A stretch of 64,000 nt of DNA from Auanema rhodensis (lineage: Eukaryota > Animalia > Nematoda). Positions within the stretch are counted from its first letter, which is position 1; each line of letters begins with the position of its first letter. The notes under the pieces were generated by a model that had not been told where the DNA came from, searched no databases, and saw only the letters and a program-made list of their open reading frames with translations. The position numbers and the translations under genes are program-made. Below are positions 1 to 18,900 of this stretch, one piece after another. The stretch spans positions 16,616,001-16,680,000 of the forward strand of contig OZ059897.1 of the NCBI GenBank assembly GCA_964057225.1. Direction: 5' to 3'.

Positions 1-163
1 ATTGGCGCAGTTGGTTAGCGCGTGGTACTTATAAGTATAAGTGATGCCGAGGTCAGCAGTTCGATCCTGCTATGGAGCAAAGTTTTGGATCTGGCTGACG
101 CCTTATCTTTCTTGGTATCTATGAAAAACAGATTGTTCAGAATGTTTTTTGATTGTGTCTATA

Positions 164-247
164 GCTCCATTGGCGCAGTTGGTTAGCGCGTGGTACTTAT
201 AAGTATAAGTGATGCCGAGGTCAGCAGTTCGATCCTGCTATGGAGCA
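164..247 (+). tRNA. tRNA-Ile (anticodon TAT/UAU) with 10-nt intron AGTATAAGTG; first complete copy, representative of the array
   Basis: Cloverleaf: acceptor GCTCCAT/ATGGAGC + discriminator A; D arm GCGC-AGTTGGTTA-GCGC; anticodon stem TGGTA/TGCCG with loop CT-TAT-A[intron]A; T arm AGCAG-TTCGATC-CTGCT. A and B boxes are present and a T4 run follows. The intron lies at the canonical 37/38 position and contains TATAAG, complementary to the anticodon loop. Confidence 0.96.
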
Positions 248-3200
248 AAGTTTTGGCTCTGGCTGGCGCCTAATGTTTTCTTGGTATCTATGAAAAACAG
301 ATTGTTCAGAATGTTTTTTGATTGTGTCTATAGCTCCATTGGCGCAGTTGGTTAGCGCGTGGTACTTATAAGTATAAGTGATGCCGAGGTCAGCAGTTCG
401 ATCCTGCTATGGAGCAAAGTTTTGGCTCTGGCTGGCGCCTTATGTTTTTTTGGTATCTATGAAAAACAGATTGTTCAGAATGTTTTTTGATTGGGTCTAT
501 AGCTCCATTGGCGCAGTTGGTTAGCGCGTGGTACTTATAAGTATAAGTGATGCCGAGGTCAGCAGTTCGATCCTGCTATGGAGCAAAAATTTGGCTCTGG
601 CTGGCGCCTAATGTTTTCTTGGTATCTATGAAAAACAGATTGTTCAGAATGTTTTTTGATTGTGTCTATAGCTCCATTGGCGCAGTTGGTTAGCGCGTGG
701 TACTTATAAGTATAAGTGATGCCGAGGTCAGCAGTTCGATCCTGCTATGGAGCAAAAATTTGGCTCTGGCTGGCGCCTTATGTTTTTTTGGTATCTATGA
801 AAAACAGATTGTTCAGAATGTTTTTTGATTGGGTCTATAGCTCCATTGGCGCAGTTGGTTAGCGCGTGGTACTTATAAGTATAAGTGATGCCGAGGTCAG
901 CAGTTCGATCCTGCTATGGAGCAAAAATTTGGCTCTGGCTGGCGCCTAATGTTTTCTTGGTATCTATGAAAAACAGATTGTTCAGAATGTTTTTTGATTG
1001 TGTCTATAGCTCCATTGGCGCAGTTGGTTAGCGCGTGGTACTTATAAGTATAAGTGATGCCGAGGTCAGCAGTTCGATCCTGCTATGGAGCAAAGTTTTG
1101 GATCTGGCTGACGCCTTATCTTTCTTGGTATCTATGAAAAACAGATTGTTCAGAATGTTTTTTGATTGTGTCTATAGCTCCATTGGCGCAGTTGGTTAGC
1201 GCGTGGTACTTATAAGTATAAGTGATGCCGAGGTCAGCAGTTCGATCCTGCTATGGAGCAAAGTTTTGGCTCTGGCTGGCGCCTAATGTTTTCTTGGTAT
1301 CTATGAAAAACAGATTGTTCAGAATGTTTTTTGATTGTGTCTATAGCTCCATTGCCGCAGTTGGTTAGCGCGTGGTACTTATAAGTATAAGTGATGCCGA
1401 GGTCAGCAGTTCGATCCTGCTATGGAGCAAAGTTTTGGCTCTGGCTGGCGCCTTATGTTTTTTTGGTATCTATGAAAAACAGATTGTTCAGAATGTTTTT
1501 TGATTGGGTCTATAGCTCCATTGGCGCAGTTGGTTAGCGCGTGGTACTTATAAGTATAAGTTATGCCGAGGTCAGCAGTTCGATCCTGCTATGGAGCAAA
1601 AATTTGGCTCTGGCTGGCGCCTAATGTTTTCTTGGTATCTATGAAAAACAGATTGTTCAGAATGTTTTTTGATTGTGTCTATAGCTCCATTGGCGCAGTT
1701 GGTTAGCGCGTGGTACTTATAAGTATAAGTGATGCCGAGGTCAGCAGTTCGATCCTGCTATGGAGCAAAGTTTTGGCTCTGGCTGGCGCCTAATGTTTTC
1801 TTGGTATCTATGAAAAACAGATTGTTCAGAATGTTTTTTGATTGTGTCTATAGCTCCATTGGCGCAGTTGGTTAGCGCGTGGTACTTATAAGTATAAGTG
1901 ATGCCGAGGTCAGCAGTTCGATCCTGCTATGGAGCAAAGTTTTGGCTCTGGCTGGCGCCTAATGTTTTCTTGGTATCTATGAAAAAACAGATTGTTCAGA
2001 ATGTTTTTTGATTGTGTCTATAGCTCCATTGGCGCAGTTGGTTAGCGCGTGGTACTTATAAGTATAAGTGATGCCGAGGTCAGCAGTTCGATCCTGCTAT
2101 GGAGCAAAGTTTTGGCTCTGGCTGGCGCCTAATGTTTTCTTGGTATCTATGAAAAAACAGATTGTTCAGAATGTTTTTCGATGGTGTCTATAGCTCCATT
2201 GGCGCAGTTGGTTAGCGCGTGGTACTTATAAGTATAAGTGATGCCGAGGTCAGCAGTTCGATCCTGCTATGGAGCAAAGTTTTGGCTCTGGCTGGCGCCT
2301 AATGTTTTCTTGGTATCTATGAAAAACAGATTGTTCAGAATGTTTTTTGATTGTGTCTATAGCTCCATTGGCGCAGTTGGTTAGCGCGTGGTACTTATAA
2401 GTATAAGTGATGCCGAGGTCAGCAGTTCGATCCTGCTATGGAGCAAAGTTTTGGCTCTGGCTGACGCCTAATGTTTTCTTGGTATCTATGAAAAACAGAT
2501 TGTTCAGAATGTTTTTTGATTGTGTCTATAGCTCCATTGCCGCAGTTGGTTAGCGCGTGGTACTTATAAGTATAAGTGATGCCGAGGTCAGCAGTTCGAT
2601 CCTGCTATGGAGCAAAGTTTTGGCTCTGGCTGGCGCCTTATGTTTTTTTGGTATCTATGAAAAACAGATTGTTCAGAATGTTTTTTGATTGGGTCTATAG
2701 CTCCATTGGCGCAGTTGGTTAGCGCGTGGTACTTATAAGTATAAGTTATGCCGAGGTCAGCAGTTCGATCCTGCTATGGAGCAAAAATTTGGCTCTGGCT
2801 GGCGCCTAATGTTTTCTTGGTATCTATGAAAAACAGATTGTTCAGAATGTTTTTTGATTGTGTCTATAGCTCCATTGGCGCAGTTGGTTAGCGCGTGGTA
2901 CTTATAAGTATAAGTGATGCCGACGTCAGCAGTTCGATCCTGCTATGGAGCAAAGTTTTGGCTCTGGCTGGCGCCTAATGTTTTCTTGGTATCTATGAAA
3001 AACAGATTGTTCAGAATGTTTTTTGATTGTGTCTATAGCTCCATTGGCGCAGTTGGTTAGCGCGTGGTACTTATAAGTATAAGTGATGCCGAGGTCAGCA
3101 GTTCGATCCTGCTATGGAGCAAAGTTTTGGCTCTGGCTGGCGCCTAATGTTTTCTTGGTATCTATGAAAAACAGATTGTTCAGAATGTTTTTTGATTGTG

Positions 3201-6200
3201 TCTATAGCTCCATTGGCGCAGTTGGTTAGCGCGTGGTACTTATAAGTATAAGTGATGCCGAGGTCAGCAGTTCGATCCTGCTATGGAGCAAAGTTTTGGC
3301 TCTGGCTGGCGCCTAATGTTTTCTTGGTATCTATGAAAAAACAGATTGTTCAGAATGTTTTTTGATTGTGTCTATAGCTCCATTGGCGCAGTTGGTTAGC
3401 GCGTGGTACTTATAAGTATAAGTGATGCCGAGGTCAGCAGTTCGATCCTGCTATGGAGCAAAGTTTTGGCTCTGGCTGGCGCCTAATGTTTTCTTGGTAT
3501 CTATGAAAAAACAGATTGTTCAGAATGTTTTTCGATGGTGTCTATAGCTCCATTGGCGCAGTTGGTTAGCGCGTGGTACTTATAAGTATAAGTGATGCCG
3601 AGGTCAGCAGTTCGATCCTGCTATGGAGCAAAGTTTTGGATCTGGCTGACGCCTTATCTTTCTTGGTATCTATGAAAAACAGATTGTTCAGAATGTTTTT
3701 TGATTGTGTCTATAGCTCCATTGGCGCAGTTGGTTAGCGCGTGGTACTTATAAGTATAAGTGATGCCGAGGTCAGCAGTTCGATCCTGCTATGGAGCAAA
3801 GTTTTGGCTCTGGCTGGCGCCTAATGTTTTCTTGGTATCTATGAAAAACAGATTGTTCAGAATGTTTTTTGATTGTGTCTATAGCTCCATTGGCGCAGTT
3901 GGTTAGCGCGTGGTACTTATAAGTATAAGTGATGCCGAGGTCAGCAGTTCGATCCTGCTATGGAGCAAAGTTTTGGCTCTGGCTGGCGCCTTATGTTTTG
4001 TTGGTATCTATGAAAAACAGATTGTTCAGAATGTTTTTTGATTGGGTCTATAGCTCCATTGGCGCAGTTGGTTAGCGCGTGGTACTTATAAGTATAAGTT
4101 ATGCCGAGGTCAGCAGTTCGATCCTGCTATGGAGCAAAAATTTGGCTCTGGCTGGCGCCTAATGTTTTCTTGGTATCTATGAAAAACAGATTGTTCAGAA
4201 TGTTTTTTGATTGTGTCTATAGCTCCATTGGCGCAGTTGGTTAGCGCGTGGTACTTATAAGTATAAGTGATGCCGAGGTCAGCAGTTCGATCCTGCTATG
4301 GAGCAAAGTTTTGGCTCTGGCTGGCGCCTAATGTTTTCTTGGTATCTATGAAAAAACAGATTGTTCAGAATGTTTTTCGATGGTGTCTATAGCTCCATTG
4401 GCGCAGTTGGTTAGCGCGTGGTACTTATAAGTATAAGTGATGCCGAGGTCAGCAGTTCGATCCTGCTATGGAGCAAAGTTTTGGATCTGGCTGACGCCTT
4501 ATCTTTCTTGGTATCTATGAAAAACAGATTGTTCAGAATGTTTTTTGATTGTGTCTATAGCTCCATTGGCGCAGTTGGTTTGCGCGTGGTACTTATAAGT
4601 ATAAGTGATGCCGAGGTCAGCAGTTCGATCCTGCTATGGAGCAAAGTTTTGGCTCTGGCTGGCGCCTAATGTTTTCTTGGTATCTATGAAAAACAGATTG
4701 TTCAGAATGTTTTTTGATTGTGTCTATAGCTCCATTGGCGCAGTTGGTTAGCGCGTGGTACTTATAAGTATAAGTGATGCCGAGGTCAGCAGTTCGATCC
4801 TGCTATGGAGCAAAGTTTTGGCTCTGGCTGGCGCCTAATGTTTTCTTGGTATCTATGAAAAACAGATTGTTCAGAATGTTTTTTGATTGTGTCTATAGCT
4901 CCATTGGCGCAGTTGGTTAGCGCGTGGTACTTATAAGTATAAGTGATGCCGAGGTCAGCAGTTCGATCCTGCTATGGAGCAAAGTTTTGGCTCTGGCTGG
5001 CGCCTAATGTTTTCTTGGTATCTATGAAAAACAGATTGTTCAGAATGTTTTTTGATTGTGTCTATAGCTCCATTGGCGCAGTTGGTTAGCGCGTGGTACT
5101 TATAAGTATAAGTGATGCCGAGGTCAGCAGTTCGATCCTGCTATGGAGCAAAGTTTTGGCTCTGGCTGGCGCCTAATGTTTTCTTGGTATCTATGAAAAA
5201 CAGATTGTTCAGAATGTTTTTTGATTGTGTCTATAGCTCCATTGGCGCAGTTGGTTAGCGCGTGGTACTTATAAGTATAAGTGATGCCGAGGTCAGCAGT
5301 TCGATCCTGCTATGGAGCAAAGTTTTGGCTCTGGCTGGCGCCTAATGTTTTCTTGGTATCTATGAAAAACAGATTGTTCAGAATGTTTTTTGATTGTGTC
5401 TATAGCTCCATTGGCGCAGTTGGTTAGCGCGTGGTACTTATAAGTATAAGTGATGCCGAGGTCAGCAGTTCGATCCTGCTATGGAGCAAAGTTTTGGCTC
5501 TGGCTGGCGCCTAATGTTTTCTTGGTATCTATGAAAAACAGATTGTTCAGAATGTTTTTTGATTGTGTCTATAGCTCCATTGGCGCAGTTGGTTAGCGCG
5601 TGGTACTTATAAGTATAAGTGATGCCGAGGTCAGCAGTTCGATCCTGCTATGGAGCAAAGTTTTGGCTCTGGCTGGCGCCTAATGTTTTCTTGGTATCTA
5701 TGAAAAACAGATTGTTCAGAATGTTTTTTGATTGTGTCTATAGCTCCATTGGCGCAGTTGGTTAGCGCGTGGTACTTATAAGTATAAGTGATGCCGAGGT
5801 CAGCAGTTCGATCCTGCTATGGAGCAAAGTTTTGGCTCTGGCTGGCGCCTAATGTTTTCTTGGTATCTATGAAAAACAGATTGTTCAGAATGTTTTTTGA
5901 TTGTGTCTATAGCTCCATTGGCGCAATTGGTTAGCGCGTGGTACTTATAAGTATAAGTGATGCCGAGGTCAGCAGTTCGATCCTGCTATGGAGCAAAGTT
6001 TTGGATCTGGCTGACGCCTAATGTTTTCTTGGTATCTATGAAAAAACAGATTGTTCAGAATGTTTTTTGATTGGGTCTTTAGCTCCATTGGCGCAGTTGG
6101 TTAGCGCGTGGTACTTATAAGTATAAGTGATGCCGAGGTCAGCAGTTCGATCCTGCTATGGAGCAAAGTTTTGGCTCTGGCTGGCGCCTAATGTTTTCTT

Positions 6201-6335
6201 GGTATCTATGAAAAAACATATTGTTCAGAATGTTTTTTGATTGGGTCTATAGCTCCATTGGCGCAGTTGGTTAGCGCGTGGTACTTATAAGTATAAGTGA
6301 TGCCGAGGTCAGCAGTTCGATCCTGCTATGGAGCA
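164..6335 (+). tRNA. 37 consecutive full-length intron-containing tRNA-Ile(UAU) genes (left block)
   Basis: (6422-164)/~169 = 37 units. The tRNA body is essentially invariant; point variants at 1355, 2540, 2924, 4581, 5926 and intron variants at 1562, 2747, 4100. Confidence 0.93.
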
Positions 6336-6421
6336 AAGTTTTGGCTCTGGCTGGCGCCTAATATTTTCTTGGTATCTATGAAAAAACAGATTGTTCAGAA
6401 TGTTTTTTGATTGGGTCTATA

Positions 6422-6469
6422 GCTCCATTGGCGCAGTTGGTTTGCGCGTGGTACTTATAAGTATAAGTG
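6422..6469 (+). pseudogene. 5' exon + complete intron of the interrupted tRNA-Ile(UAU) copy
   Basis: GCTCCATTGG...TATAAGTG followed directly by the element TIR at 6470. Carries a D-loop A>T variant at 6443. Confidence 0.93.
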
Positions 6470-6512
6470 CGTTACATATCGTTTCTTCCCGTCTTTTCAT
6501 GGTCGGAAGATA
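6470..6512 (+). repeat. Left 43-bp terminal inverted repeat CGTTACATATCGTTTCTTCCCGTCTTTTCATGGTCGGAAGATA
   Basis: Exact reverse complement of 10999-11041; the next base inward mismatches. Confidence 0.97.
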
Positions 6513-6527
6513 AAGAAAAATGGACAC

Positions 6528-9500
6528 ATGTTACCGTTTGTTCATATTGACATTGAAGGTAGAGGACTGTTAGCATTATGGGATTCTGGAGCTACGGTCT
6601 CATATATTCCGTTCTCCACATTGGCATATATTGGAAGACAATATTTTACAAAATATTCTAAATCTGCATCCACTGCAAATGGATCAGAGTTTCGCTTTGT
6701 GGGAAAATGCAAGTTAGATGTGGGTATAGCAGGTTACCAAGTGGAACACGAATTTTTAATATCTGAAGACAATGACTGTCCAGGACAAATGTTACTTGGT
6801 ACTGATTTTATGCGTACGTTGGAAGAAAGAGAGATATTTACTACATTAAAACTATGTAAAGGAAAGTTGATTGTTGGTAATATGGAAACACCCTTAGTAA
6901 AACCTGGTTGTTTTGCATATAAAACCACAACTAAAACAGTAAATATCATAAGTTTGTCCACAGTAACAGTTCCACCACATAGTACCTCCCACATATCTTT
7001 GCAAACAGGACCAGAATTAGATTTTGATCAATATGCTCTTTTAAAACCTAGCATAGGTCCTATCTCAATTCCAGATGCCGCCATAGGACCTTTTCCTATT
7101 ACTATGGTAGTATCAAACAATTCTTCAAAGCCAATTAAAATTAATAAAAATGACCACATTGGTTCAGGACTTATAGCATCTAAAGAAATTATGAACGATT
7201 ATGTTCCACCTGAAGCTGATTGGGAAGATAAGTTACCAACTTTTCCTCAGCATCTTTTGGATGATTTGAACTTCAATTCTTGCACTCTGTCCCATAAACT
7301 GAAGAAAAATCTGATTACAATCATTAAGGAAAACCAAACGGCATTTTTCAACCATGATCATAATATTGGTCTCTTTTGCGGACCAGTTGAACATGCCATT
7401 CCTATAAGATCCGATATGGATTTCCCAAAAAGTAGATCTTACAGAGTACCATTGGGTAAGCAAGAAGAAGTAGAACGGCAAGTGAAAGAAATGTTGTCGC
7501 AAGGTATAATCGAAAATTCGACGGCTACTTTCACTAGTCCAGTTGTTCTTGTGAAAAAGAAAGATAATTCTTTCCGGTTCGTAACTGACTTTAGAGCATT
7601 GAATAGTGTTACTAAGAAACAAACATACAGCATCCCACACATTCCTGATATCATAGACTTAGCGGCTGAAGCTCAGTTCTTTTCGAATTTTGATCTCATT
7701 TCTGGTTTCTTCCAAATACCGTTGAAACGCTCAGATAGACACCTAACTGCTTTTACCACTCCATCAGGTACCTATCAGTATTGCCGAATGCCTATGGGAT
7801 TGTGTGGAGCGCCACACACTTTTCAATCCGCAGTGCGATACTTGCAATCTCTTGTTAGATGCAAACTGTTTGTATATCTAGATGATTTGCTAATAATTTC
7901 GAACTCAGCTGATGAACATTTAAGAGATATACAAGAAGTGCTGAAAAAGGTCACTGAACTAGGGTTAAAAATTAAGTTATCTAAATGTTGCTTTGCAGCC
8001 ACTGAAGTAAAGTTTTTGGGTTTTGTAATAGGTAGAAATGGTGTTAAACCAGATCCTGCTAAGATACAGGCTGTTTCCGAATTTCCAAATCCAAGTACAG
8101 TTACGGCTGTCAGATCCTTTCTAGGTATGACTAACTATTTTCGACGGTTTATTCAAAATTATGCCGGAATAGCTGAGCCATTGTATAAGTTAACACATAA
8201 GGATACTCCTTTTGAGTGGAAATCGGAACATGCAGACGCATTTAAAACTTTAAAAACATTACTGTGTACTGCCCCTGTACTGAAACCTCCTAAAGCAGAC
8301 CAACCTTTTGTTATAGAAAGTGATGGCAGTATGATCGCTGTGGGAACAGTTTTATTGCAATCAGCAGAGAAAAATTCTCCATTACACCCGATTGCGTTTG
8401 CTAGTAGAAAGTTGACTCCAGCGGAACGGAAATATCCTCCTATTGAAGTTGAAGCACTCGGTTTAGTCTTTGCTCTTCAACAATTCCGTACCTATGTATT
8501 AGGAGTACCTACCACAGTTATCACAGATCACCGACCATTAACCAGTTTAATGTCGCGTAAAGATCTGATAGGTAGATTAGCCAAGTATCAACTAATGATA
8601 CAAGATTTCAACATAAAGATTGAATATCGTCCTGGCAAATTAAACAGTGTCTGTGATGCTCTCTCCAGGTATATAGGAAACGAAGCAAATGACAGTCGTC
8701 CTACTAAACCAAAGGACAAAGTAAAACCTGTTGATGCTTTTATTGCTCATATTACAACTATTTCTTCTATTGACCAACTAAATTGTGAAGAAATACGGAA
8801 AGTTCAAGCTGGAGTTCCCTGGATTCGCGAAGCACTTTCTCAAATTAATAATGATAACTGTCCGGCTAATATATCAGACCGGTATGAAGAACGAGAAGGC
8901 ATATTACATGCAAAACAAGCGAAAAATTATTTAAAACCATCTATTATTTTGCCTCGAAACGACAAAATAACTGATGTTGTCATCAAATTTTTTCACGAAG
9001 ATTCCAAAATTGGTGCACACCTAGGTATAAATAAAACTACTGATGCGATTCGACGACGATTCTTTTGGACTAATATGGTTCCACAAATAACTGAATTTAT
9101 TAATCGTTGTACAAAATGTGCAAGTAGGAAATCTAACCCACACCAATCGTATATTCAACCTATGGGAAGATTTGTTATACCCGAAAAGCCATTTGATCGT
9201 ATTCATGTAGATATACTAGGTCCTTTACCTCGCACTAATGATGGACATCGATACATCTTGAGTATTCAAGATGCTTTTAGTAAATGGGGAACAACTTGCC
9301 CATTAATAACACAAACGGCTACTGAAATCACAAAAGCGTTTGTAATTAGATTTGTTTTCATATATGGACCACCAATGAGTATGATAACCGATAATGGTAG
9401 TAGCTTTTTGTCATCTGAATTTCAAGCTATGTGTAAACAATTTGGAATTAAACACACTACTACGCTACCATATCATAAAAATGCTAATGGACAAGTTGAG

Positions 9501-10061
9501 AGACTTCATAGAACTTTGGAAGAAGCTCTCTCTTCATTCGTGAATGAACAACAAACTAACTGGGATATACACCTACCCAAAGTTATGTTTGCGATCAATA
9601 CGTTACCAAACTCATCAACATCTATTAGTCCATATGTTGTATTATTTGGTCGGGATGCAAGACTTCCTATTGACCATCAATTGCCTGGAAACAATCTTCA
9701 AACTGAAGAACCAGCCAATCCTACAGAAGATTTTGTCAATAGATCGCTAAAACAAAATGAAAGCACATCTAATATAGTGAAAGATAGAATTGAAACATGC
9801 ACAAAGAAGAATGAACAACGGTACAATACACGAAATAGAACACAAAATAAAGAAATTCAGGTTAATGACTTAGTTATGATAAAAGTGAATTCTACTCGAA
9901 ACAAACTAACACCTTCATTCGAAGGGCCTTATTTAGTTACAGCAGTTCAAAGATCTTTCGTCGTGGTTCAAACAGATAAAGGAAAAAGCAGAAGAGTACA
10001 CAAGGACTTCGTCAAACCTTACCAACGGACAACATCTATTCCGGTTATCACAATTTCTTGA
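6528..10061 (+). CDS. pol: Ty3/Gypsy Pol polyprotein: aspartic protease, dUTPase-like linker, reverse transcriptase, RNase H, DDE integrase with GPY/F module (1177 aa)
   Basis: Protease LWDSGA and MLLGTDF; RT SPVVLVKKKD, FRFVTDFRALN, FDLISGFFQI, MPMGL, YLDD; RNase H ESDGS, EVEAL, TDHRPL, CDALSR; integrase HHCC (H..H..CTKC), HVDILGP, TDNGSSF, NGQVER, FEGPY. PR-RT-RH-INT is the Gypsy domain order. No stops or frameshifts. Confidence 0.97.
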   Translation: MLPFVHIDIEGRGLLALWDSGATVSYIPFSTLAYIGRQYFTKYSKSASTANGSEFRFVGKCKLDVGIAGYQVEHEFLISEDNDCPGQMLLGTDFMRTLEEREIFTTLKLCKGKLIVGNMETPLVKPGCFAYKTTTKTVNIISLSTVTVPPHSTSHISLQTGPELDFDQYALLKPSIGPISIPDAAIGPFPITMVVSNNSSKPIKINKNDHIGSGLIASKEIMNDYVPPEADWEDKLPTFPQHLLDDLNFNSCTLSHKLKKNLITIIKENQTAFFNHDHNIGLFCGPVEHAIPIRSDMDFPKSRSYRVPLGKQEEVERQVKEMLSQGIIENSTATFTSPVVLVKKKDNSFRFVTDFRALNSVTKKQTYSIPHIPDIIDLAAEAQFFSNFDLISGFFQIPLKRSDRHLTAFTTPSGTYQYCRMPMGLCGAPHTFQSAVRYLQSLVRCKLFVYLDDLLIISNSADEHLRDIQEVLKKVTELGLKIKLSKCCFAATEVKFLGFVIGRNGVKPDPAKIQAVSEFPNPSTVTAVRSFLGMTNYFRRFIQNYAGIAEPLYKLTHKDTPFEWKSEHADAFKTLKTLLCTAPVLKPPKADQPFVIESDGSMIAVGTVLLQSAEKNSPLHPIAFASRKLTPAERKYPPIEVEALGLVFALQQFRTYVLGVPTTVITDHRPLTSLMSRKDLIGRLAKYQLMIQDFNIKIEYRPGKLNSVCDALSRYIGNEANDSRPTKPKDKVKPVDAFIAHITTISSIDQLNCEEIRKVQAGVPWIREALSQINNDNCPANISDRYEEREGILHAKQAKNYLKPSIILPRNDKITDVVIKFFHEDSKIGAHLGINKTTDAIRRRFFWTNMVPQITEFINRCTKCASRKSNPHQSYIQPMGRFVIPEKPFDRIHVDILGPLPRTNDGHRYILSIQDAFSKWGTTCPLITQTATEITKAFVIRFVFIYGPPMSMITDNGSSFLSSEFQAMCKQFGIKHTTTLPYHKNANGQVERLHRTLEEALSSFVNEQQTNWDIHLPKVMFAINTLPNSSTSISPYVVLFGRDARLPIDHQLPGNNLQTEEPANPTEDFVNRSLKQNESTSNIVKDRIETCTKKNEQRYNTRNRTQNKEIQVNDLVMIKVNSTRNKLTPSFEGPYLVTAVQRSFVVVQTDKGKSRRVHKDFVKPYQRTTSIPVITIS

Positions 10062-10648
10062 AGGTAGTTTTTTTAACAAAATCAAACTGTTGAATTTTTT
10101 ATTTTATTTTGTGCCATTTCTGATTGTAACACTTCTTTGTTGTTGATTGATTTTCTCTGAGAAGTCTGCTATTGTTTTACAAGGTTTTGTTTTATTACTC
10201 CAACTCTCATCGAGTAGATTTTTTTTTCAACATTCTCTTGTGAATCTTGCTATTTTTTTATGCTTAATCATTACTTGTATTCACCTTATGGACATTAGTC
10301 ATACGGGTTAAACGAGTTTTCATTTTTTTGTACAGAACGGGCTCGACCTATTCTCAGGGTAACACCGTACCTGTACAACTCAAGAAAATGAACGACTATA
10401 TCACAGTCGAATGGTTTAGAAGCAAAGCTCTCGTTTGCAAGCATTTCACTACTCAAGTGAATGAAATAGAATCTACTCGATACTACATTTCGAATTCAAC
10501 AAACTTGAAGAGACAATAGCTAAACTTTCAAATCGTATTGTATACATTTTTTTTTATCCACTACACCATGATTTTTTTTTCCAACATCCAACTATCTTAA
10601 AAAGTGAATTAATTTATTTTGTTTTTGAACGAGGACGTTCAACTTTTT

Positions 10649-10660
10649 AAGGTGGGCGGA
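10649..10660 (+). promoter_or_regulatory. Polypurine tract (plus-strand primer site) AAGGTGGGCGGA
   Basis: Preceded by CGAGGACG and a T5 tract and followed immediately by TGTCACA, the usual arrangement at the start of a Gypsy 3' LTR. Confidence 0.75.
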
Positions 10661-11041
10661 TGTCACATCTGCAAGCACATGGTAAACATGTGCGCGCTAT
10701 TCAAATAGCGGGAGCCTGAACAAGCCCCGCCTACAACATGGGACACACATGACACTCTTGCTTCTGGTCTAACCCAGATAGGTTGTCTTATAGTCATGTG
10801 AGTCTCATCTCTATATCATCTATATATATACTCTATTTAATACTTTATCATATCTCTTTATATTCTTTCTTAATGTAATTCTTATATTGTATTTTCTTGT
10901 TATCTGATAATGAATCCTTTTCTCTTTAAGTATTTGTCTTAATAAGGAAATCGAAGCGTTCGGGTCTGCCTACCTAAGGAACAAGGTAGAAGTACATATA
11001 TCTTCCGACCATGAAAAGACGGGAAGAAACGATATGTAACG
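10661..11041 (+). repeat. Single 3' LTR-like segment (381 bp), TGTCACAT...ATGTAACG
   Basis: Starts with TG directly after the PPT, has imperfect inverted ends and a TATA-like run near 10821, and ends at the TSD. There is no second direct copy in the window, so the LTR call rests on position and motifs. Confidence 0.7.
10999..11041 (-). repeat. Right 43-bp terminal inverted repeat TATCTTCCGACCATGAAAAGACGGGAAGAAACGATATGTAACG
   Basis: Exact reverse complement of 6470-6512. Confidence 0.97.
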
Positions 11042-11081
11042 AGTGATGCCGAGGTCAGCAGTTCGATCCTGCTATGGAGCA
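11042..11081 (+). pseudogene. Duplicated AGTG + 3' exon of the interrupted tRNA-Ile(UAU) copy
   Basis: AGTG-ATGCCGAGGTCAGCAGTTCGATCCTGCTATGGAGCA resumes the unit exactly. Confidence 0.93.
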
Positions 11082-11166
11082 AAGTTTTGGCTCTGGCTGG
11101 CGCCTAATGTTTTCTTGGTATCTATGAAAAACAGATTGTTCAGAATGTTTTTTGATTGTGTCTATA

Positions 11167-13455
11167 GCTCCATTGGCGCAGTTGGTTAGCGCGTGGTACT
11201 TATAAGTATAAGTGATGCCGAGGTCAGCAGTTCGATCCTGCTATGGAGCAAAGTTTTGGCTCTGGCTGGCGCCTAATGTTTTCTTGGTATCTATGAAAAA
11301 CAGATTGTTCAGAATGTTTTTTGATTGTGTGTATAGCTCCATTGGCGCAGTTGGTTAGCGCGTGGTACCTATAAGTATAAGTGATGCCGAGGTCAGCAGT
11401 TCGATCCTGCTATGGAGCAAAGTTTTGGCTCTGGCTGGCGCCTAATGTTTTCTTGGTATCTATGAAAAAACAGATTGTTCAGAATGTTTTTTGATTGGGT
11501 CTATAGCTCCATTGGCGCAGTTGGTTAGCGCGTGGTACTTATAAGTATAAGTGATGCCGAGGTCAGCAGTTCGATCCTGCTATGGAGCAAAGTTTTGGCT
11601 CTGGCTGGCGCCTAATGTTTTCTTGGTATCTATGAAAAAACAGATTGTTCAGAATGTTTTTTGATTGGGTCTATAGCTCCATTGGCGCAGTTGGTTAGCG
11701 CGTGGTACTTATAAGTATAAGTGATGCCGAGGTCAGCAGTTCGATCCTGCTATGGAGCAAAGTTTAGGCTCTGGCTGGCGCCTAATGTTTTCTTGGTATC
11801 TATGAAAAAACAGATTGTTCAGAATGTTTTTCGATGGTGTCTATAGCTCCATTGGCGCAGTTGGTTAGCGCGTGGTACTTATAAGTATAAGTGATGCCGA
11901 GGTCAGCAGTTCGATCCTGCTATGGAGCAAAGTTTTGGCTCTGGCTGGCGCCTTATGTTTTCTTGGTATCTATGAAAAACAGATTGTTCAGAATGTTTTT
12001 TGATTGTGTCTATAGCTCCATTGGCGCAGTTGGTTAGCGCGTGGTACTTATAAGTATAAGTGATGCCGAGGTCAGCAGTTCGATCCTGCTATGGAGCAAA
12101 GTTTTGGCTCTGGCTGATGCCTTATGTTTTCTTGGTATCTATGAAAAACAGATTGTTCAGAATGTTTTTTGATTGGGTCTATAGCTCCATTGGCGCAGTT
12201 GGTTAGCGCGTGGTACTTATAAGTATAAGTGATGCCGAGGTCAGCAGTTCGATCCTGCTATGGAGCAAAGTTTTGGCTCTGGCTGGCGCCTAATGTTTTC
12301 TTGGTATCTATGAAAAAACAGATTGTTCAGAATGTTTTTTGATTGGGTCTATAGCTCCATTGGCGCAGTTGGTTAGCGCGTGGTACTTATAAGTATAAGT
12401 GATGCCGAGGTGAGCAGTTCGATCCTGCTATGGAGCAAAAATTTGGCTCTGGCTGGCGCCTAATGTTTTCTTGGTATCTATGAAAAAACAGATTGTTCAG
12501 AATGTTTTTTGATTGTGTCTATAGCTCCATTGGCGCAGTTGGTTAGCGCGTGGTACTTATAAGTATAAGTGATGCCGAGGTCAGCAGTTCGATCCTGCTA
12601 TGGAGCAAAGTTTTGGCTCTGGCTGGCGCCTAATGTTTTCTTGGTATCTATGAAAAAACAGATTGTTCAGAATTTTTTTCGATGGTGTCTATAGCTCCAT
12701 TGGCGCAGTTGGTTAGCGCGTGGTACTTATAAGTATAAGTGATGCCGAGGTCAGCAGTTCGATCCTGCTATGGAGCAAAGTTTTGGATCTGGCTGACGCC
12801 TTATCTTTCTTGGTATCTATGAAAAACAGATTGTTCAGAATGTTTTTTGATTGTGTCTATAGCTCCATTGGCGCAGTTGGTTAGCGCGTGGTACTTATAA
12901 GTATAAGTGATGCCGAGGTCAGCAGTTCGATCCTGCTATGGAGCAAAGTTTTAGCTCCGTTCGGCGCCTAATGTTTTCTTGGTATCTATGAAAAAACAGA
13001 TTGTTCAGAATGTTTTTTGATTGTGTCTATAGCTCCATTGGCGCAGTTGGTTAGCGCGTGGTACTTATAAGTATAAGTGATGCCGAGGTCAGCAGTTCGA
13101 TCCTGCTATGGAGCAAAGTTTTGGCTCTGGCTGGCGCCTAATGTTTTCTTGGTATATATGAAAAAACAGATTGTTCAGAATGTTTTTCGATGGTGTCTAT
13201 AGCTCCATTGGCGCAGTTGTTTAGCGCGTGGTACTTATAAGTATAAGTGATGCCGAGGTCAGCAGTTCGATCCTGCTATGGAGCAAAGTTTTAGCTCCGT
13301 TCGGCGCCTAATGTTTTCTTGGTATCTATGAAAAAACAGATTGTTCAGAATGTTTTTTGATTGTGTCTATAGCTTCATTGGCGCAGTTGGTTAGCGCGTG
13401 GTACTTATAAGTATAAGTGATGCCGAGGTCAGCAGTTCGATCCTGCTATGGAGCA
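11167..13455 (+). tRNA. 14 consecutive full-length intron-containing tRNA-Ile(UAU) genes (right block)
   Basis: Starts at 11167 ... 13372 (13 periods). Point variants at 11369 (U33>C), 12412, 13220 and 13375. Confidence 0.93.
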
Positions 13456-13549
13456 AAGTTTTAGCTCCGTTCGGCGCCTAATGTTTTCTTGGGTAATTTT
13501 TTATCAAATGAAATTTTTTCTAAATTACCCTTAAAAACACTTTTTTAAG

Positions 13550-14093: not shown

Positions 14094-15318
14094 TTATGTG
14101 GTTGCATTGTTCCCCTGCCCCCCCCCCCCACCCAACCCCTAAAATAGTAAAAAAAACATATTTAGCGAAAAGTTTTTATTTTTTTTAGTATTGTCCTTTC
14201 TTCTGGATCACTTTCTCCCATCTCTGTGTCAAACTTCTGATTCCTTTCCTGAAAAAAACTTTATTTTTTGATTCAAAAAAATTTTTAACAAAGCCTTCAA
14301 CTTCCTCAAAGTTTTTGAAATTTTCACCCCTCAAACTGTGTTCCATAGACCTAAACAGATGGAAATCTCAGCAATGAGGGCGAGCGTTGTCGTGCAACAA
14401 CGCTATACTTCTGTTCCTAAGCTCCTCTCGGGCTTCAATGTTAACACTGAGCCGTCTGAGTTGCTCAGAATAATGTTCTCCATCTATGGTTCTACCGTAA
14501 GGTAAAATCTCATAGAAGAGAACTCCGTTTTCGTTCCAGAAAACGGACAGAAGTGCCTTTTTGGCTGTTTGCGGGTTGGCCCTTGGGGTCATCGGAACCG
14601 ATTCTCCAGGGTTAACCCAATACTTAGCCCTGTTTGGGTTGGAGTAGAGAATCCACTTCTCATCTCCAGTTACCAAACTTTTGAAAAAACCCCTTTTTTG
14701 GCTCAATTTCAGAAGATCTTGAGCCAAAGAAACTCTTGACCTGAGATTACTCTCAGACAACAGATGTGGGGAAAATGGGGAGAGCTTCTGAATTTTCCCT
14801 ATTTTTTTCAACCGTCGAGAGACAGTTGCTTTGTGAACATTCAATTGGTTCCCGATTTGGAGTTGTGTAGCTCCAGGAGTGCAATCGAGAACCTTTTGAA
14901 GGTCACAGTTGCTGAATTTTTCAGCAGCGCCGGGTCTTGGACGATCTTGGAGATCGAACTGGCCAGCTCTAAAGCGGCTAAACCACTTCTTACATGTTGT
15001 ATACGATGGAGAAGAATCTCCGTAAACAACTTTCATTTTTCTGAAGGTTTCTTTGGCAGAGATTCCTTCATTAAAATGATGAAGAAGGGTGTAGCGCATA
15101 AGTGCAAAATCCATAACGAAAATGAGAAACAAAAAAACGTTCAAAGAAAAAATAGTTTTTTCAAATGTAAAGTTTTAAAATTTAAAATTTTTTTATTGTT
15201 ATTATATTTAAAAATATTCAAATTTTTAAATTTTGTATTTATTTTTTTTTAATTTTGTAAAATTAGCATAATATTTAATTTTTCTCAAGGGGGGCAGGGG
15301 AACAATGCAACCACCTAA
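14094..15318 (-). mobile_element. Mariner (Tc1/mariner, DD34D-type) DNA transposon, 1225 bp, internally deleted
   Basis: 30-bp TIRs TTA(T/G)GTGGTTGCATTGTTCCCCTGCCCCCC at 14094-14123 and 15289-15318 (1 mismatch); TA duplication at 14092-14093 and 15319-15320; transposase ORF inside. Confidence 0.95.
14185..15114 (-). pseudogene. Mariner transposase, inactivated by an internal deletion/in-frame stop
   Basis: MDFALMRY... with HTH region (KKWFSRFRAG, DRPRPG), LVTGDEKWILY and LHDNARPH, then TGA at 14368-14370, then in-frame DFHLFRSMEHSL...RWEKVIQKKGQY*. The YSPDLAP segment is missing. Confidence 0.92.
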
Positions 15319-15531
15319 TATAACACAAAAGCAAAGAAAATCAGTAAAGTGTCTCGCATGAAGATACCTCTAAAATCTTGATTTCCAATACTTCGACTAA
15401 AGCAAGGAGATCTAAATTTGTTAGGGCAGGCAGATCTTTCTCTAGTTTCATCATTTATTTAGCATTATTTTTTTTGACCGTTCCAGAGCATTTTTTTCGA
15501 CCATTTCGACAATTGGATTTCGACCACATTT

Positions 15532-15918: not shown

Positions 15919-18900
15919 AACGATCGACAGCAGGGACCCTAAGTCGTCAGAAGATTGAGATAAACTTGAAAACAAAGAAAGCAACAAAAATATGAAAAAA
16001 ATTGGAACAATGCTCTAAGAAATAAAAATTAAGAATATGAGAAATAAGAGAATCATCTTTTCAGCTATTTATATATTAGTAACCATTATTATGTATATCA
16101 TACATATATATATATATATATATAGATATATATTATATATTTATATACATACATGAGAAGAAGGTAAACTTATATGAAAAGTACACGCATATATTGAATA
16201 TTTATTTAATATAATTTTTCAATTATTTAGATCCTTTCGTCTAGTTTCATGTTTTCTTCTCGTTTTTATTTCTGTCACAAAGTCGCAAATAAGCTATAGC
16301 ATGTTCGGAGTTTCGGTAAGATTGTTGATGTAAGCTATGAAATAAAATTTTTAGAAATAGAGGTATTTCCAAAGAATAAAAACGACCAATATCCTGAAAG
16401 ATATTACTCAGTATAGTTTCTGTGATGGTTTTATTAATACATTTTCTGTTAATTTCATCTTTAATTCATAATGAGTATCAAATTAGAACGTAAGATATAA
16501 GACACGTTTCTATGTCATTACCATCCCAGTTCTTACGAAATGATATTATTGTTAGAAATTATCCATTTTTTGAAATAAATTGCTCCAAAGAATAAGAATT
16601 TCACATTTTTTGTATTGTTTTGCATCAAAAACTTAGATAACACTATTTTTCAAAAATATTGTTATAAATCTATACATGTACTCCAATGGTAATCATTTTA
16701 TAGTGCTTTGCAAATTTTTTAAAGCTGAAAATCTAATAAGCGTAACTTTAAAAATATCTGCCAAAGTATGTCTTCCAATGTTTAGAAAGAAGAATTTAAA
16801 ATTTTTTTCATATGATGCAGCTGATGAACGCTCATCATCAGAAGTTGAAGTTATATATAGAATATCAAAAATTTATTAGCGTAAAGTATCATGCATCATT
16901 CCATATGCGCATCAATCTAGAGTTACATCTGTATTAATTCACCTAAATCTTGTATTTTTTTATTTTCTTCTCTCATTCTGTTCTCAAAAAAATTTGTTTA
17001 CAGATTAGCGATATAAGCAATTCCGATTTTAGAAACATTGCAGCACTTCCAGAGAAATAGCGTGTTTTTTTCCAGTAGAATTTATATTTTTTAGCATATT
17101 TTTGTTAAGAGAGTTCAAATAAAAAATGATGTCGATGTTGCTAGCTTATAACTATATATGATTATTACTCATATTGAACTTTATAATTTTAATATATTAA
17201 TAGAAATATATAAATATATATGTATCTAAATGTATTTATATTATATTATTAGCATATTTATTTTATTGCAAAATATTTATTTATTTCTGTTTCTTTATCT
17301 TCACTTTTGAGCTTTCTTTCCTTAAATTAATATAATTAATTTTCTTTACTGGAAGGTTATAAAACATATGTTTTCACTATAAAAAGAAAAAACATTTATG
17401 AATTAGCTTTTTCAATTCTAGGTATCACGTTCTTTCCTGAGCTACAATCTCTAGATGTTCGAAACTTCCTCTTACATCTGAAATAATATATTTTTTTAGT
17501 ACACAAATCTTCAATCGAATGTTCAGCTTTTGGCTGAATAATTTGGTTGCTTTTCTTTGAATCCTGATTTCTTTTTATCTTAATATTTCTCTTTCTCACT
17601 CTTAATTCACAATTCCATATACACACTCTTTCTCTTATTCCCTTTCACTTATCCCTCTCTCTTTAAATTATATTCCAATTTTAAAAATAGTTTCATCTGC
17701 CTTTAGGCTGTTTGTTCAAAAGAATAATAATATATATTTATAATGATATGTTTCAAATTCATTAAAAATCTTACTATGTTTCTATTCATCAAAGACAAAG
17801 TTCCTTCTCAGTTCTTTAGATCATTCACTAAGGTTTGTTTTTCATACATTTTTAAGAAAATAATACTCTGCACCATATTTCAATAAACACAAATGAGTAG
17901 AGTGGAAACTTCATTCCTATTTTAGCATTTGTACAAATTAATTACGTCACAAACGAGCTGAACAAGCAGTATTTAAAATTTCATTTTGAATGATGAAGAC
18001 AAAACTTTAAAAAAATTACTCAAATATCTACGAATAAGAATGAATTAGCTGGTCCATTTTCTCGTGAATATTGAAAAGAAGCTACTGATGAGTGTTGCAA
18101 GTGATTCTAAATTTTGTCGAACGAAGATGTCTAGGCTACTTGCCTTACTTCATTTTCTCTTATATTCATCAGAAGTACTTAAAAATAATTATAGATAGTA
18201 TTATTATATTTTATATTATTTCTTTTAAATGTAATAATATAAATACATTATTAAGTGCTATATATATATATATATATGTACAGGATATAATATTATTTTG
18301 TTGGAATGTTTGAAATTCGTTATTAAATAATTCTTGAAATTGAAGAAAATTTATAAGTAATACTTTTTCCTGGAAACAGATTTGAAAGCAACCAGTCTTA
18401 TTCACGCAATTTCTTGAAATGATTTCGAACTACGTTCGTGTCAACGTGAGCGTTTAAACTTACAGCTTAACATCTCAATTCAGACGTAAAATATTAGAAC
18501 AAACAAGGACAAAATTAGACTGCTTATAATTAAAAACAAATTATATTTTAATTTGATTATATGAAGTAATATTTAGTTTTTTTTGTAAATGTTTTGTTAA
18601 TGTTTGAATATTTAAAGTCGATCAATGAAAGATAAAAGCTTTGCAGAAGTAAGTAAAAGCATAAGATGCTTCCAGGCAGATTTATTGAATGTTTTTCTAT
18701 AATATCGGAAGCAAATGACTTCGCACTTTTTAAATCTAAAACTTTCTTTTTTTTTCTGTATTGCCATATGTACCTCTTTTAATACCTTCCTTACTTTTGC
18801 TATGTATTTCGTATCTCCCTCTTAGTCTCTTTTTCTCTCTCCTTATGTTCATATTTATTTCTTCACTAAAACTTCATCTCATCGTTTCCTACAATTTTCA

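What the first reader, a model, noticed from the sequence alone, without database searches (positions are those of the whole stretch)
10649..11041. The left TIR is an inverted copy of the U5 end of the single LTR: a copy-back / panhandle architecture
Seen: CGAGGACG-T5-PPT-TGTCACA marks an LTR start at 10661, and the last 43 bp of that segment reappear inverted at the element's 5' end. Inference: both integrated ends are U5-type att sites, and the U3 end was not used. This would arise if a 43-nt minus-strand strong-stop DNA primed plus-strand synthesis at the start of pol, or if RT copied back onto its own nascent strand as in copy-back defective viral genomes. A full-length transcript would fold into a 43-bp panhandle that might allow tRNA-independent priming, which would fit the lack of a PBS.
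Basis: partly seen in the sequence, partly recalled or inferred. Interest (0 to 1): 0.8.

Follow-up and report, generated by a model that had tools for sequence, protein, structure and literature searches.

The report
Retrotransposon copy with two right ends
A retrovirus-like jumping gene, likely of a roundworm, left a shortened copy whose two ends are both the right-hand tip of its terminal repeat; it is likely a one-off copying error that the element's own integrase still inserted, not a new self-priming element.

Summary
Observation confirmed. A 4,572-bp insert (6470-11041) sits in the intron of one tRNA-Ile(TAT) gene of a tandem array, inside a 4-bp duplication (AGTG). It holds an intact PR-RT-RH-IN frame, a PPT and one LTR, and its first 43 bp are a perfect inverted copy of its last 43. 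Contigs of related runs fix the family LTR at exactly 10661-11041 (TG...CG), show a tRNA-Gln PBS directly behind it and a 4-bp duplication at an ordinary insertion. The parent is likely a nematode gag-env-pol Ty3/gypsy element. Not supported: tRNA-independent panhandle priming (the family has a PBS, the right arm lies behind the poly(A)-like signals, no second copy was listed in 7 runs) and annealing-driven mispriming (1 nt shared at the junction). Best mechanism: reverse-transcriptase copy-back at an A-rich site that also bounds the family's pol-deleted derivative, in a copy whose PPT G-run is interrupted. Main rival: two cDNAs integrated by their U5 ends and joined by host repair. The scan noted inverted-end gypsy copies before in three other genomes.

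The parts
6422..6469 (+). 5' exon and 10-nt intron of the interrupted host tRNA-Ile(TAT) gene; the insert lies at the intron's 3' end, both exons are whole
   Evidence: ARAGORN on neighbouring units: tRNA-Ile(tat), 10-nt intron; positions by unit register
6466..6469 (+). left copy of the 4-bp target-site duplication AGTG
   Evidence: empty units read ...TATAAGTGATGCC (47 of 49 sites counted; one is a downstream variant, one is this insertion)
6470..6512 (-). left arm: inverted copy of the last 43 bp of the LTR (U5 end facing outward)
   Evidence: 43/43 complementary to 10999-11041
6512..6517 (+). junction of inverted U5 and pol; 6512 is the single base shared by both sides; 6512-6517 are the surviving part of an 8-nt repeat (other copy 9801-9808) that bounds the family's pol-deleted derivative
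   Evidence: contigs of X1, X2, X6 align from 6512 with 24 other letters before; the same letters lead into 9801 in X2, X6, X9
6528..10061 (+). intact pol frame PR-RT-RNase H-integrase; open from 6423, first in-frame ATG at 6528 at the protease start; no gag, no env
10630..10648 (+). CGAGGACG motif and T5 run ahead of the PPT
10649..10660 (+). polypurine tract; its G-run is interrupted by C at 10657 (position -4 from the LTR start), a difference from the copies in all 7 runs laid
   Evidence: (table 3)
10661..11041 (+). single 381-bp LTR, TG...CG; TATA-like run at 10821, poly(A)-like hexamers at 10909 and 10941
   Evidence: loose ends at both limits; motifs
10993..11038 (+). predicted U5 hairpin; the copy-back point lies in its basal stem
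   Evidence: RNA fold z -2.29 (5 of 200 shuffles as good); as DNA not significant
10999..11041 (+). right arm: natural U5 end of the LTR
   Evidence: followed by the PBS in X2, X8, X11
11042..11045 (+). right copy of the target-site duplication AGTG
11046..11081 (+). 3' exon of the interrupted tRNA-Ile gene

Best explanation
The insert is a truncated Ty3/gypsy copy bounded by two U5 ends inside a 4-bp duplication, likely made by one reverse-transcription error and likely inserted by the family's own integrase. Inferred steps: minus-strand DNA, primed normally by tRNA-Gln, was copied through the LTR and pol, stalled on the A-rich tract at the env/protease boundary (6512) and switched, with 1 nt of pairing, onto the U5 part of its own (or the co-packaged) minus strand, copying 43 nt back to the primer junction. 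That leaves a plus-sense U5 end on the left, to which a second tRNA-primed strong-stop DNA can anneal and prime the whole plus strand, so no PPT priming, second strand transfer or U3 end is needed; the interrupted PPT G-run would favour this route. Both ends then carry the family's att word (U3 TGTCACA; U5 read inward CGTTACA) and integrate as a pair. The product lacks a 5' promoter, PBS, gag and env and is most likely a dead end.
For: Shown: LTR limits 10661 and 11041 and a PBS behind 11041; PBS is the complement of the tRNA-Gln 3' end and the usual primer of nematode GAG-ENV-POL elements, abutting the LTR (8 of 15 rows seen); nearest proteins are nematode env-before-protease polyproteins, 40-55% identical; 4-bp duplication here and, by matching flanks, at an ordinary insertion (AGCG). 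For RT rather than host repair: (i) the junction falls inside the 8-nt repeat at which the family's pol-deleted derivative is joined, about 9 of some 11,000 positions, noticed after the fact; (ii) the PPT differs from 7 of 7 runs at position -4, a position whose substitution lowers plus-strand priming in HIV-1 (PMC1802577 abstract; PMC13332604 passages): a weak PPT hinders the double-stranded U5 end that the two-cDNA rival needs but not copy-back; (iii) difference counts imply one unlisted variant within 11012-11041 in the six runs whose listed contigs reach the LTR end, which both arms must share (inferred); (iv) one switch explains everything, the rivals need two trimmings or two insertions.
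Against: Only 1 nt of homology at the switch, which is also the signature of nematode polymerase-theta joining (PMC5068794 passages). One junction cannot show the enzyme. The PPT change may be a donor-lineage or later mutation: the copy also differs from all runs laid at 10752 and 10768 and at five or more pol sites, and single G-tract changes in HIV often leave replication working. The hairpin that might release nascent DNA is not significant as DNA. env was not seen directly in this family: only 24 letters upstream of 6512 were shown. No run reproduced the window's junctions, so they rest on the assembly alone.
Confidence: 0.5

Rival explanations
1. Two-cDNA integration: an intasome paired the U5 ends of two different (unfinished) cDNAs, inserted them back to back with a 4-bp stagger, and host end joining fused the inner free ends after trimming one to 43 bp and the other to the start of pol.
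For: Exact U5 termini and a family-length duplication; 1-nt homology is the polymerase-theta signature in C. elegans; host enzymes finish half-integrated HIV DNA with losses or insertions of viral sequence (PMC5041404 passages). An earlier scan note reached a similar idea for another genome (e1-8625059; unchecked).
Against: Needs two independent trimmings; does not explain why the break sits in the repeat used by the pol-deleted derivative; needs PPT priming to make double-stranded U5 ends, and this copy's PPT is interrupted.
Confidence: 0.27
2. Two ordinary insertions in opposite orientation at the same base of two different tRNA units, followed by a deletion between them; in a tandem array this mimics a single target-site duplication.
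For: The array makes the duplication ambiguous; long inverted repeats are deletion-prone (general knowledge); 1-nt junction fits host repair; both duplications seen read AGYG.
Against: Needs two hits on one base of a 169-bp unit; no contig joined the LTR to the tRNA in 4 of 4 runs (depth 0 at 11054-11066) and the other insertion site seen does not match the tRNA unit by eye; a local unit variant lies on both sides of the insert and not in the units read further left (weak, five double units not resolved); both arms appear to share a variant absent from the dominant copies.
Confidence: 0.08
3. A 43-nt minus strong-stop DNA annealed to the start of pol and primed plus-strand synthesis there.
For: Gives the same structure; U5 hairpin could stall RT near 43 nt.
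Against: No pairing at the site beyond 1 nt; an exact 8-nt site for that 3' end exists at 7223 and was not used.
Confidence: 0.07
4. A self-propagating panhandle element that primes without tRNA, or a pol-only helper module kept by selection.
For: Intact 1,177-aa pol frame with its own ATG at the protease start; perfect arms; breakpoint complementary to the pol-deleted derivative.
Against: No second copy listed in 7 of 15 runs laid (tables partly cut; contigs drop rare forms); no U3 at the 5' end; right arm behind the poly(A)-like signals; 3 of the 5 listed pol differences private to this copy fall on codon positions 1-2, against 5 of the other 21 listed, as expected without selection (small numbers).
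Confidence: 0.04
5. Assembly chimera, or a separate TIR DNA transposon that captured pol.
For: No run reproduced the junctions; terminal inverted repeats with a 4-bp duplication resemble some DNA transposons.
Against: An inverted chimera would continue into the inverted right flank, but the left flank is the forward tRNA half; the 43 bp are the family's U5, followed by a PBS; no other copy of the repeat in the 64 kb.
Confidence: 0.04

Closest known systems
Nematode GAG-ENV-POL Ty3/gypsy elements with HSV/gB-type env (errantiviruses of PMC13524379; 'NERV' of Sacco et al. 2022, seen only as cited there, name recalled)
   Same: pol order and 40-55% protein identity to env-before-protease polyproteins; tRNA-Gln PBS abutting the LTR; LTR length 381 bp within the 173-424 bp of the 8 Gln rows seen
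   Different: this copy has lost the 5' LTR, PBS, gag and env and starts with an inverted U5 end; the family LTR ends in CG, not CA
Complex LTR-retrotransposon insertions from RT template switching (PMC1950507; abstract and Results read)
   Same: abnormal cDNA made during reverse transcription, inserted in one event inside one target duplication
   Different: those are direct multimers switched at homologous R regions with normal U3 and U5 outer ends; here the switch is inverted, non-homologous and gives two U5 ends
Aberrant HIV-1 proviruses with one host-joined end (PMC5041404; passages)
   Same: altered provirus structure with host repair as a possible step
   Different: there the aberrant end lacks an exact att end and the host DNA is rearranged; here both ends are exact att ends with a normal-length duplication
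Copy-back defective viral genomes (recalled)
   Same: complementary termini both derived from one genome end, short or no homology at the switch
   Different: DNA intermediate fixed by integration; no sign of helper-dependent amplification
Ginger-type integrase DNA transposons and DIRS elements (recalled)
   Same: terminal inverted repeats; Ginger has a gypsy-like integrase and 4-bp duplications
   Different: keeps PR, RT, RNase H, PPT and a whole LTR; repeats are U5; no tyrosine recombinase; single copy

Membership tests
Nematode GAG-ENV-POL Ty3/gypsy element | pol order PR-RT-RNase H-integrase | tested here: met
   Pfam domains in that order
Nematode GAG-ENV-POL Ty3/gypsy element | gB-type env between gag and protease | tested here: inconclusive
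   present ahead of the protease or RT in 5 of 5 nearest relatives scanned; absent from the window copy; for its own family only 24 letters upstream of the break were shown
Nematode GAG-ENV-POL Ty3/gypsy element | tRNA PBS directly behind the 5' LTR (Gln in the Caenorhabditis rows) | tested here: met
   met for the family (X2, X8, X11); the window copy has lost it
Nematode GAG-ENV-POL Ty3/gypsy element | two direct LTRs around the coding region | tested here: not met
   one LTR plus an inverted 43-bp U5 end: the copy is a defective derivative, not an intact member
Ty3/gypsy LTR retrotransposons | short target-site duplication made by integrase | tested here: met
   AGTG here; AGCG inferred from matching flanks on separate contigs
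Ty3/gypsy LTR retrotransposons | TG...CA termini | tested here: not met
   family LTR is TG...CG, next to the PBS and next to a genomic flank; one diverged copy reads ...TGTAACT
TIR DNA transposon (Ginger-like or non-autonomous carrier) | repeats independent of an LTR and found around other cargo or copies | tested here: not met
   the 43 bp are the LTR's U5 end; no other copy in the window or in metagenome contigs (0 matches)
DIRS-type inverted-repeat retrotransposon | tyrosine recombinase in place of integrase, no duplication | tested here: not met
   rve integrase present, no recombinase family hit; 4-bp duplication
Copy-back defective genome | complementary termini copied from one end | tested here: met
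Copy-back defective genome | made by the polymerase switching to its nascent strand | tested here: inconclusive
   junction position and PPT favour it, 1-nt homology does not decide
Copy-back defective genome | amplified with a helper | tested here: inconclusive
   no second copy listed in 7 runs, tables partly cut; host genome not held

The most novel reading that the evidence does not exclude
One copy-back step turned an envelope-bearing LTR retrotransposon into a unit with terminal inverted repeats that are both integrase sites around an intact pol with its own start codon, cut at the very site where the family's pol-deleted derivative is joined. If such units are copied again, or supply Pol to the pol-deleted copies, this would be a retroelement splitting into complementary gag-env and pol modules and a caught-in-the-act route from LTR element to inverted-repeat integrase transposon.
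Probability: 0.04. Interest if true: 0.75.

Novelty: new variant of a known kind. Interest (0 to 1): 0.33.

Why it matters
As it stands it is a clean natural record that a gypsy integrase can likely insert DNA by two U5 ends, both ending in CG instead of CA, and that copy-back-like products reach the germ line. The interrupted PPT gives a testable reason why the U3 end was skipped. It also warns annotators: such copies look like TIR DNA transposons carrying pol. It would matter far more if the unit were shown to move again, because it would link LTR elements to inverted-repeat integrase transposons; nothing here shows that.

Tried and rejected
Host genome not held, so copy number there is untested. 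Exact search of metagenome contigs for 23 nt of the repeat: 0 matches. Protein search of metagenome contigs gave one 31%-identical gypsy locus, L001, with no inverted repeat of 25 bp or more; viral contigs gave none of 83 candidates. No RNA holder on record was listed; X11 is only guessed to be RNA, and its uncovered stretch 10873-10956 was not interpreted. Sacco et al. 2022 is not held (searches did not find it). Searches for printed cases of inverted-LTR or two-U5 insertions returned none that matched by title or abstract start; the library lacks most subscription papers, so this is no proof of absence. DNA folding of the arm was no better than shuffles; the RNA at the pol start is unstructured relative to shuffles. 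The purine run at 6512 is not exceptional (9 nt; three longer and five equal runs among 23), so an internal-PPT explanation was dropped. ARAGORN without introns, or on several units with long introns allowed, misnamed the tRNA; one search resolved it. Array-variant analysis left five double units unresolved. Rejected: DNA-transposon capture, DIRS, simple inverted chimera, splice-derived junction (no AG acceptor context by eye).

Full report
What is in the window. Positions 1-13,480 are a tandem array of 168-170-bp units, each with an intron-bearing tRNA-Ile(TAT) gene; 51 whole genes were called, 50 as Ile and one variant as Tyr. One further unit is interrupted by 4,572 bp (6470-11041). The flanks read AGTG on both sides, the last four bases of the 10-nt intron, so the insert carries a 4-bp duplication and leaves both exons whole. 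The insert begins and ends with a perfect 43-bp inverted repeat that extends in neither direction; 200 shuffles gave at most 20 bp. Inside lies one open frame (6423-10061) with protease, RT, RNase H and integrase in gypsy order and a first in-frame ATG at 6528, then about 600 bp of AT-rich sequence, CGAGGACG, T5, a 12-nt purine-rich tract and TGTCACA at 10661.

Family. The nearest proteins come from Auanema, Caenorhabditis, Diploscapter and Heterorhabditis and are 40-55% identical over the alignment. All 5 that I scanned carry a gB-like fusion domain upstream of the protease or RT and 258-1,295 residues ahead of the protease motif where the window frame has 36. PMC13524379 (passages) states that nematode env-bearing gypsy elements are arranged GAG-ENV-POL. 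In its supplementary table I saw 15 of the 36 Chromadorea rows: 8 have a Gln PBS starting at the LTR end, 1 another tRNA, 6 none; LTRs of the 8 are 173-424 bp. Two earlier notes on this genome also call the host a nematode (unchecked). The window copy thus starts a few codons before the protease and has lost everything upstream.

The host genome is not held, but 15 public runs of five organisms hold 26-81% of the element's words; I laid 7 of them (X6 twice). Foreign sequence begins exactly before 10661 in X6 (2 contigs) and X3 (1), so the LTR starts there. Behind 11041, X2, X8 and X11 continue with a TGG-starting stretch whose first 13 letters stand in a published reverse primer for tRNA-Gln (PMC7744096, one passage) and match the Gln PBS of two Caenorhabditis rows. 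X3 and X6 continue instead into a genomic flank starting AGCG, and the X3 flank before 10661 ends in AGCG: an ordinary insertion with a 4-bp duplication, inferred from two separate contigs. So the LTR is 381 bp, TG...CG, the 43 bp are its true U5 end, and the CG end is integrated in normal copies too. One diverged copy ends ...TGTAACT. U3 (TGTCACA) and U5 read inward (CGTTACA) share five of seven bases, so a U5-U5 pair is a plausible integrase substrate. The DNA-transposon alternative is refuted.

The junction. In X1, X2 and X6 pol continues upstream of 6512 with 24 other letters, which by eye keep the frame and resemble the relatives' linker before the protease. The inverted arm ends at 6512 and these contigs begin at 6512: one shared base, and no similarity beyond it. 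The predicted microhomology is absent, and an exact 8-nt match for the arm's 3' end at 7223 was not used, which speaks against priming by annealing. The same upstream letters also lead into 9801 in X2, X6 and X9, through an 8-nt repeat: the family has a pol-deleted derivative, and depth rises beyond 9860 in all four runs (depth is no copy number). The window's junction falls inside the left copy of that repeat. This was noticed after the fact, but about 9 positions in some 11,000 is a small target, and it suggests a site where RT stalls or transfers.

Why U3 was skipped. At 10657, position -4 of the PPT, the window has C within the G-run and differs from the contigs of 7 of 7 runs at full depth. 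In HIV-1, substitution at -4 lowers plus-strand priming (PMC1802577, abstract), and G-tract changes shift or abolish priming and alter the U3 end, though single changes are often tolerated (PMC13332604, passages). Against over-reading: the copy also differs from all runs laid at 10752 and 10768 and at five or more pol sites, so this may be one of several private changes. Counting each contig's differences against the listed rows leaves one unlisted difference, which must lie within 11012-11041, in the six runs whose listed contigs reach the LTR end (X1, X2, X3, X6, X8, X11; inferred; one search hid 34 rows). Both arms are identical, so they share it and descend from one template or one donor lineage.

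Mechanism. Best supported (0.5): tRNA-Gln-primed minus strand stalls at 6512, switches to the U5 part of a minus strand and copies 43 nt back to the primer junction; a second strong-stop DNA anneals to this plus-sense U5 and primes the whole plus strand; integrase pairs the two U5 ends. Shown are the structure, the ends, the PBS and the duplication; the enzyme and order of steps are inferred. Rival (0.27): U5 ends of two cDNAs integrated together and joined by host repair; single-nucleotide homology is the polymerase-theta signature in C. elegans (PMC5068794, passages) and host joining of viral ends is known for HIV (PMC5041404, passages). Rival (0.08): two opposite insertions in different array units and a deletion, which a tandem array would disguise; but no contig joined the LTR to the tRNA in the 4 runs, and unit variants look continuous across the insert (weak). 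Together, a two-U5 product formed before or at integration has about 0.85.

Panhandle priming. Not supported. The family primes with tRNA; the missing PBS is a consequence of the truncation; there is no U3 at the 5' end; poly(A)-like hexamers at 10909 and 10941 put the right arm in U5, outside a normal mRNA end (site not mapped). No contig with the U5-pol junction was listed in the 7 runs, but hid 45 loose-end rows and 405 pieces, hid 1 and 32, and contigs drop rare forms. Of 26 listed pol differences 18 are at third codon positions; of the 5 private to this copy only 2, a weak hint that it is not under selection.

Comparison and novelty. RT template switching is a described source of complex LTR insertions inside one duplication (PMC1950507, abstract and Results), but as direct multimers. 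Four searches found no printed two-U5 case in the held library, which lacks most subscription journals; Sacco et al. 2022 could not be read and may describe this clade's termini. The scan has three unchecked notes on inverted-end gypsy copies in other genomes, seen after I had written down my reading. Verdict: real, correctly described, a new variant of a known kind of defective insertion; most likely dead. Interest 0.33.

Noticed in passing
window 1-13480: Tandem array of at least 52 intron-bearing tRNA-Ile(TAT) genes (51 whole plus the interrupted one), 168-170-bp unit, running off the window's left end, for a usually rare anticodon.
   Followed up: partly
window 6510-6517 and 9801-9808 (run contigs X2, X6, X9): The family has a pol-deleted derivative joined through an 8-nt repeat; in X2 it carries a further 40-bp gap (9820-9859) and is at higher depth than pol.
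   Followed up: partly
window 10661-11041: Family LTR has non-canonical TG...CG termini; a diverged copy in X3 appears to end in CT. Both duplications seen read AGYG.
   Followed up: partly
window 6460-6469 / 11042-11045: The insert lies wholly inside the tRNA intron, so both exons are intact; a T4 run in the left arm would likely stop Pol III.
   Followed up: no
window 11336-11419: One array unit has a changed anticodon loop and is called tRNA-Tyr(ATA) by ARAGORN; likely a mutated Ile copy.
   Followed up: no
window about 14095-15330: Mariner-type element on the minus strand with inverted ends of about 28 bp and a 268-aa frame (PF01359, PF17906) right after the array.
   Followed up: partly
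window 16094-18289: AT-rich 61-nt inverted arms at 77% identity; low complexity, may be chance.
   Followed up: no
L001:1-10228: Metagenome contig with a distant gypsy pol (31%) and a direct repeat at 5,340-bp spacing, possibly a tandem copy or assembly duplication.
   Followed up: no
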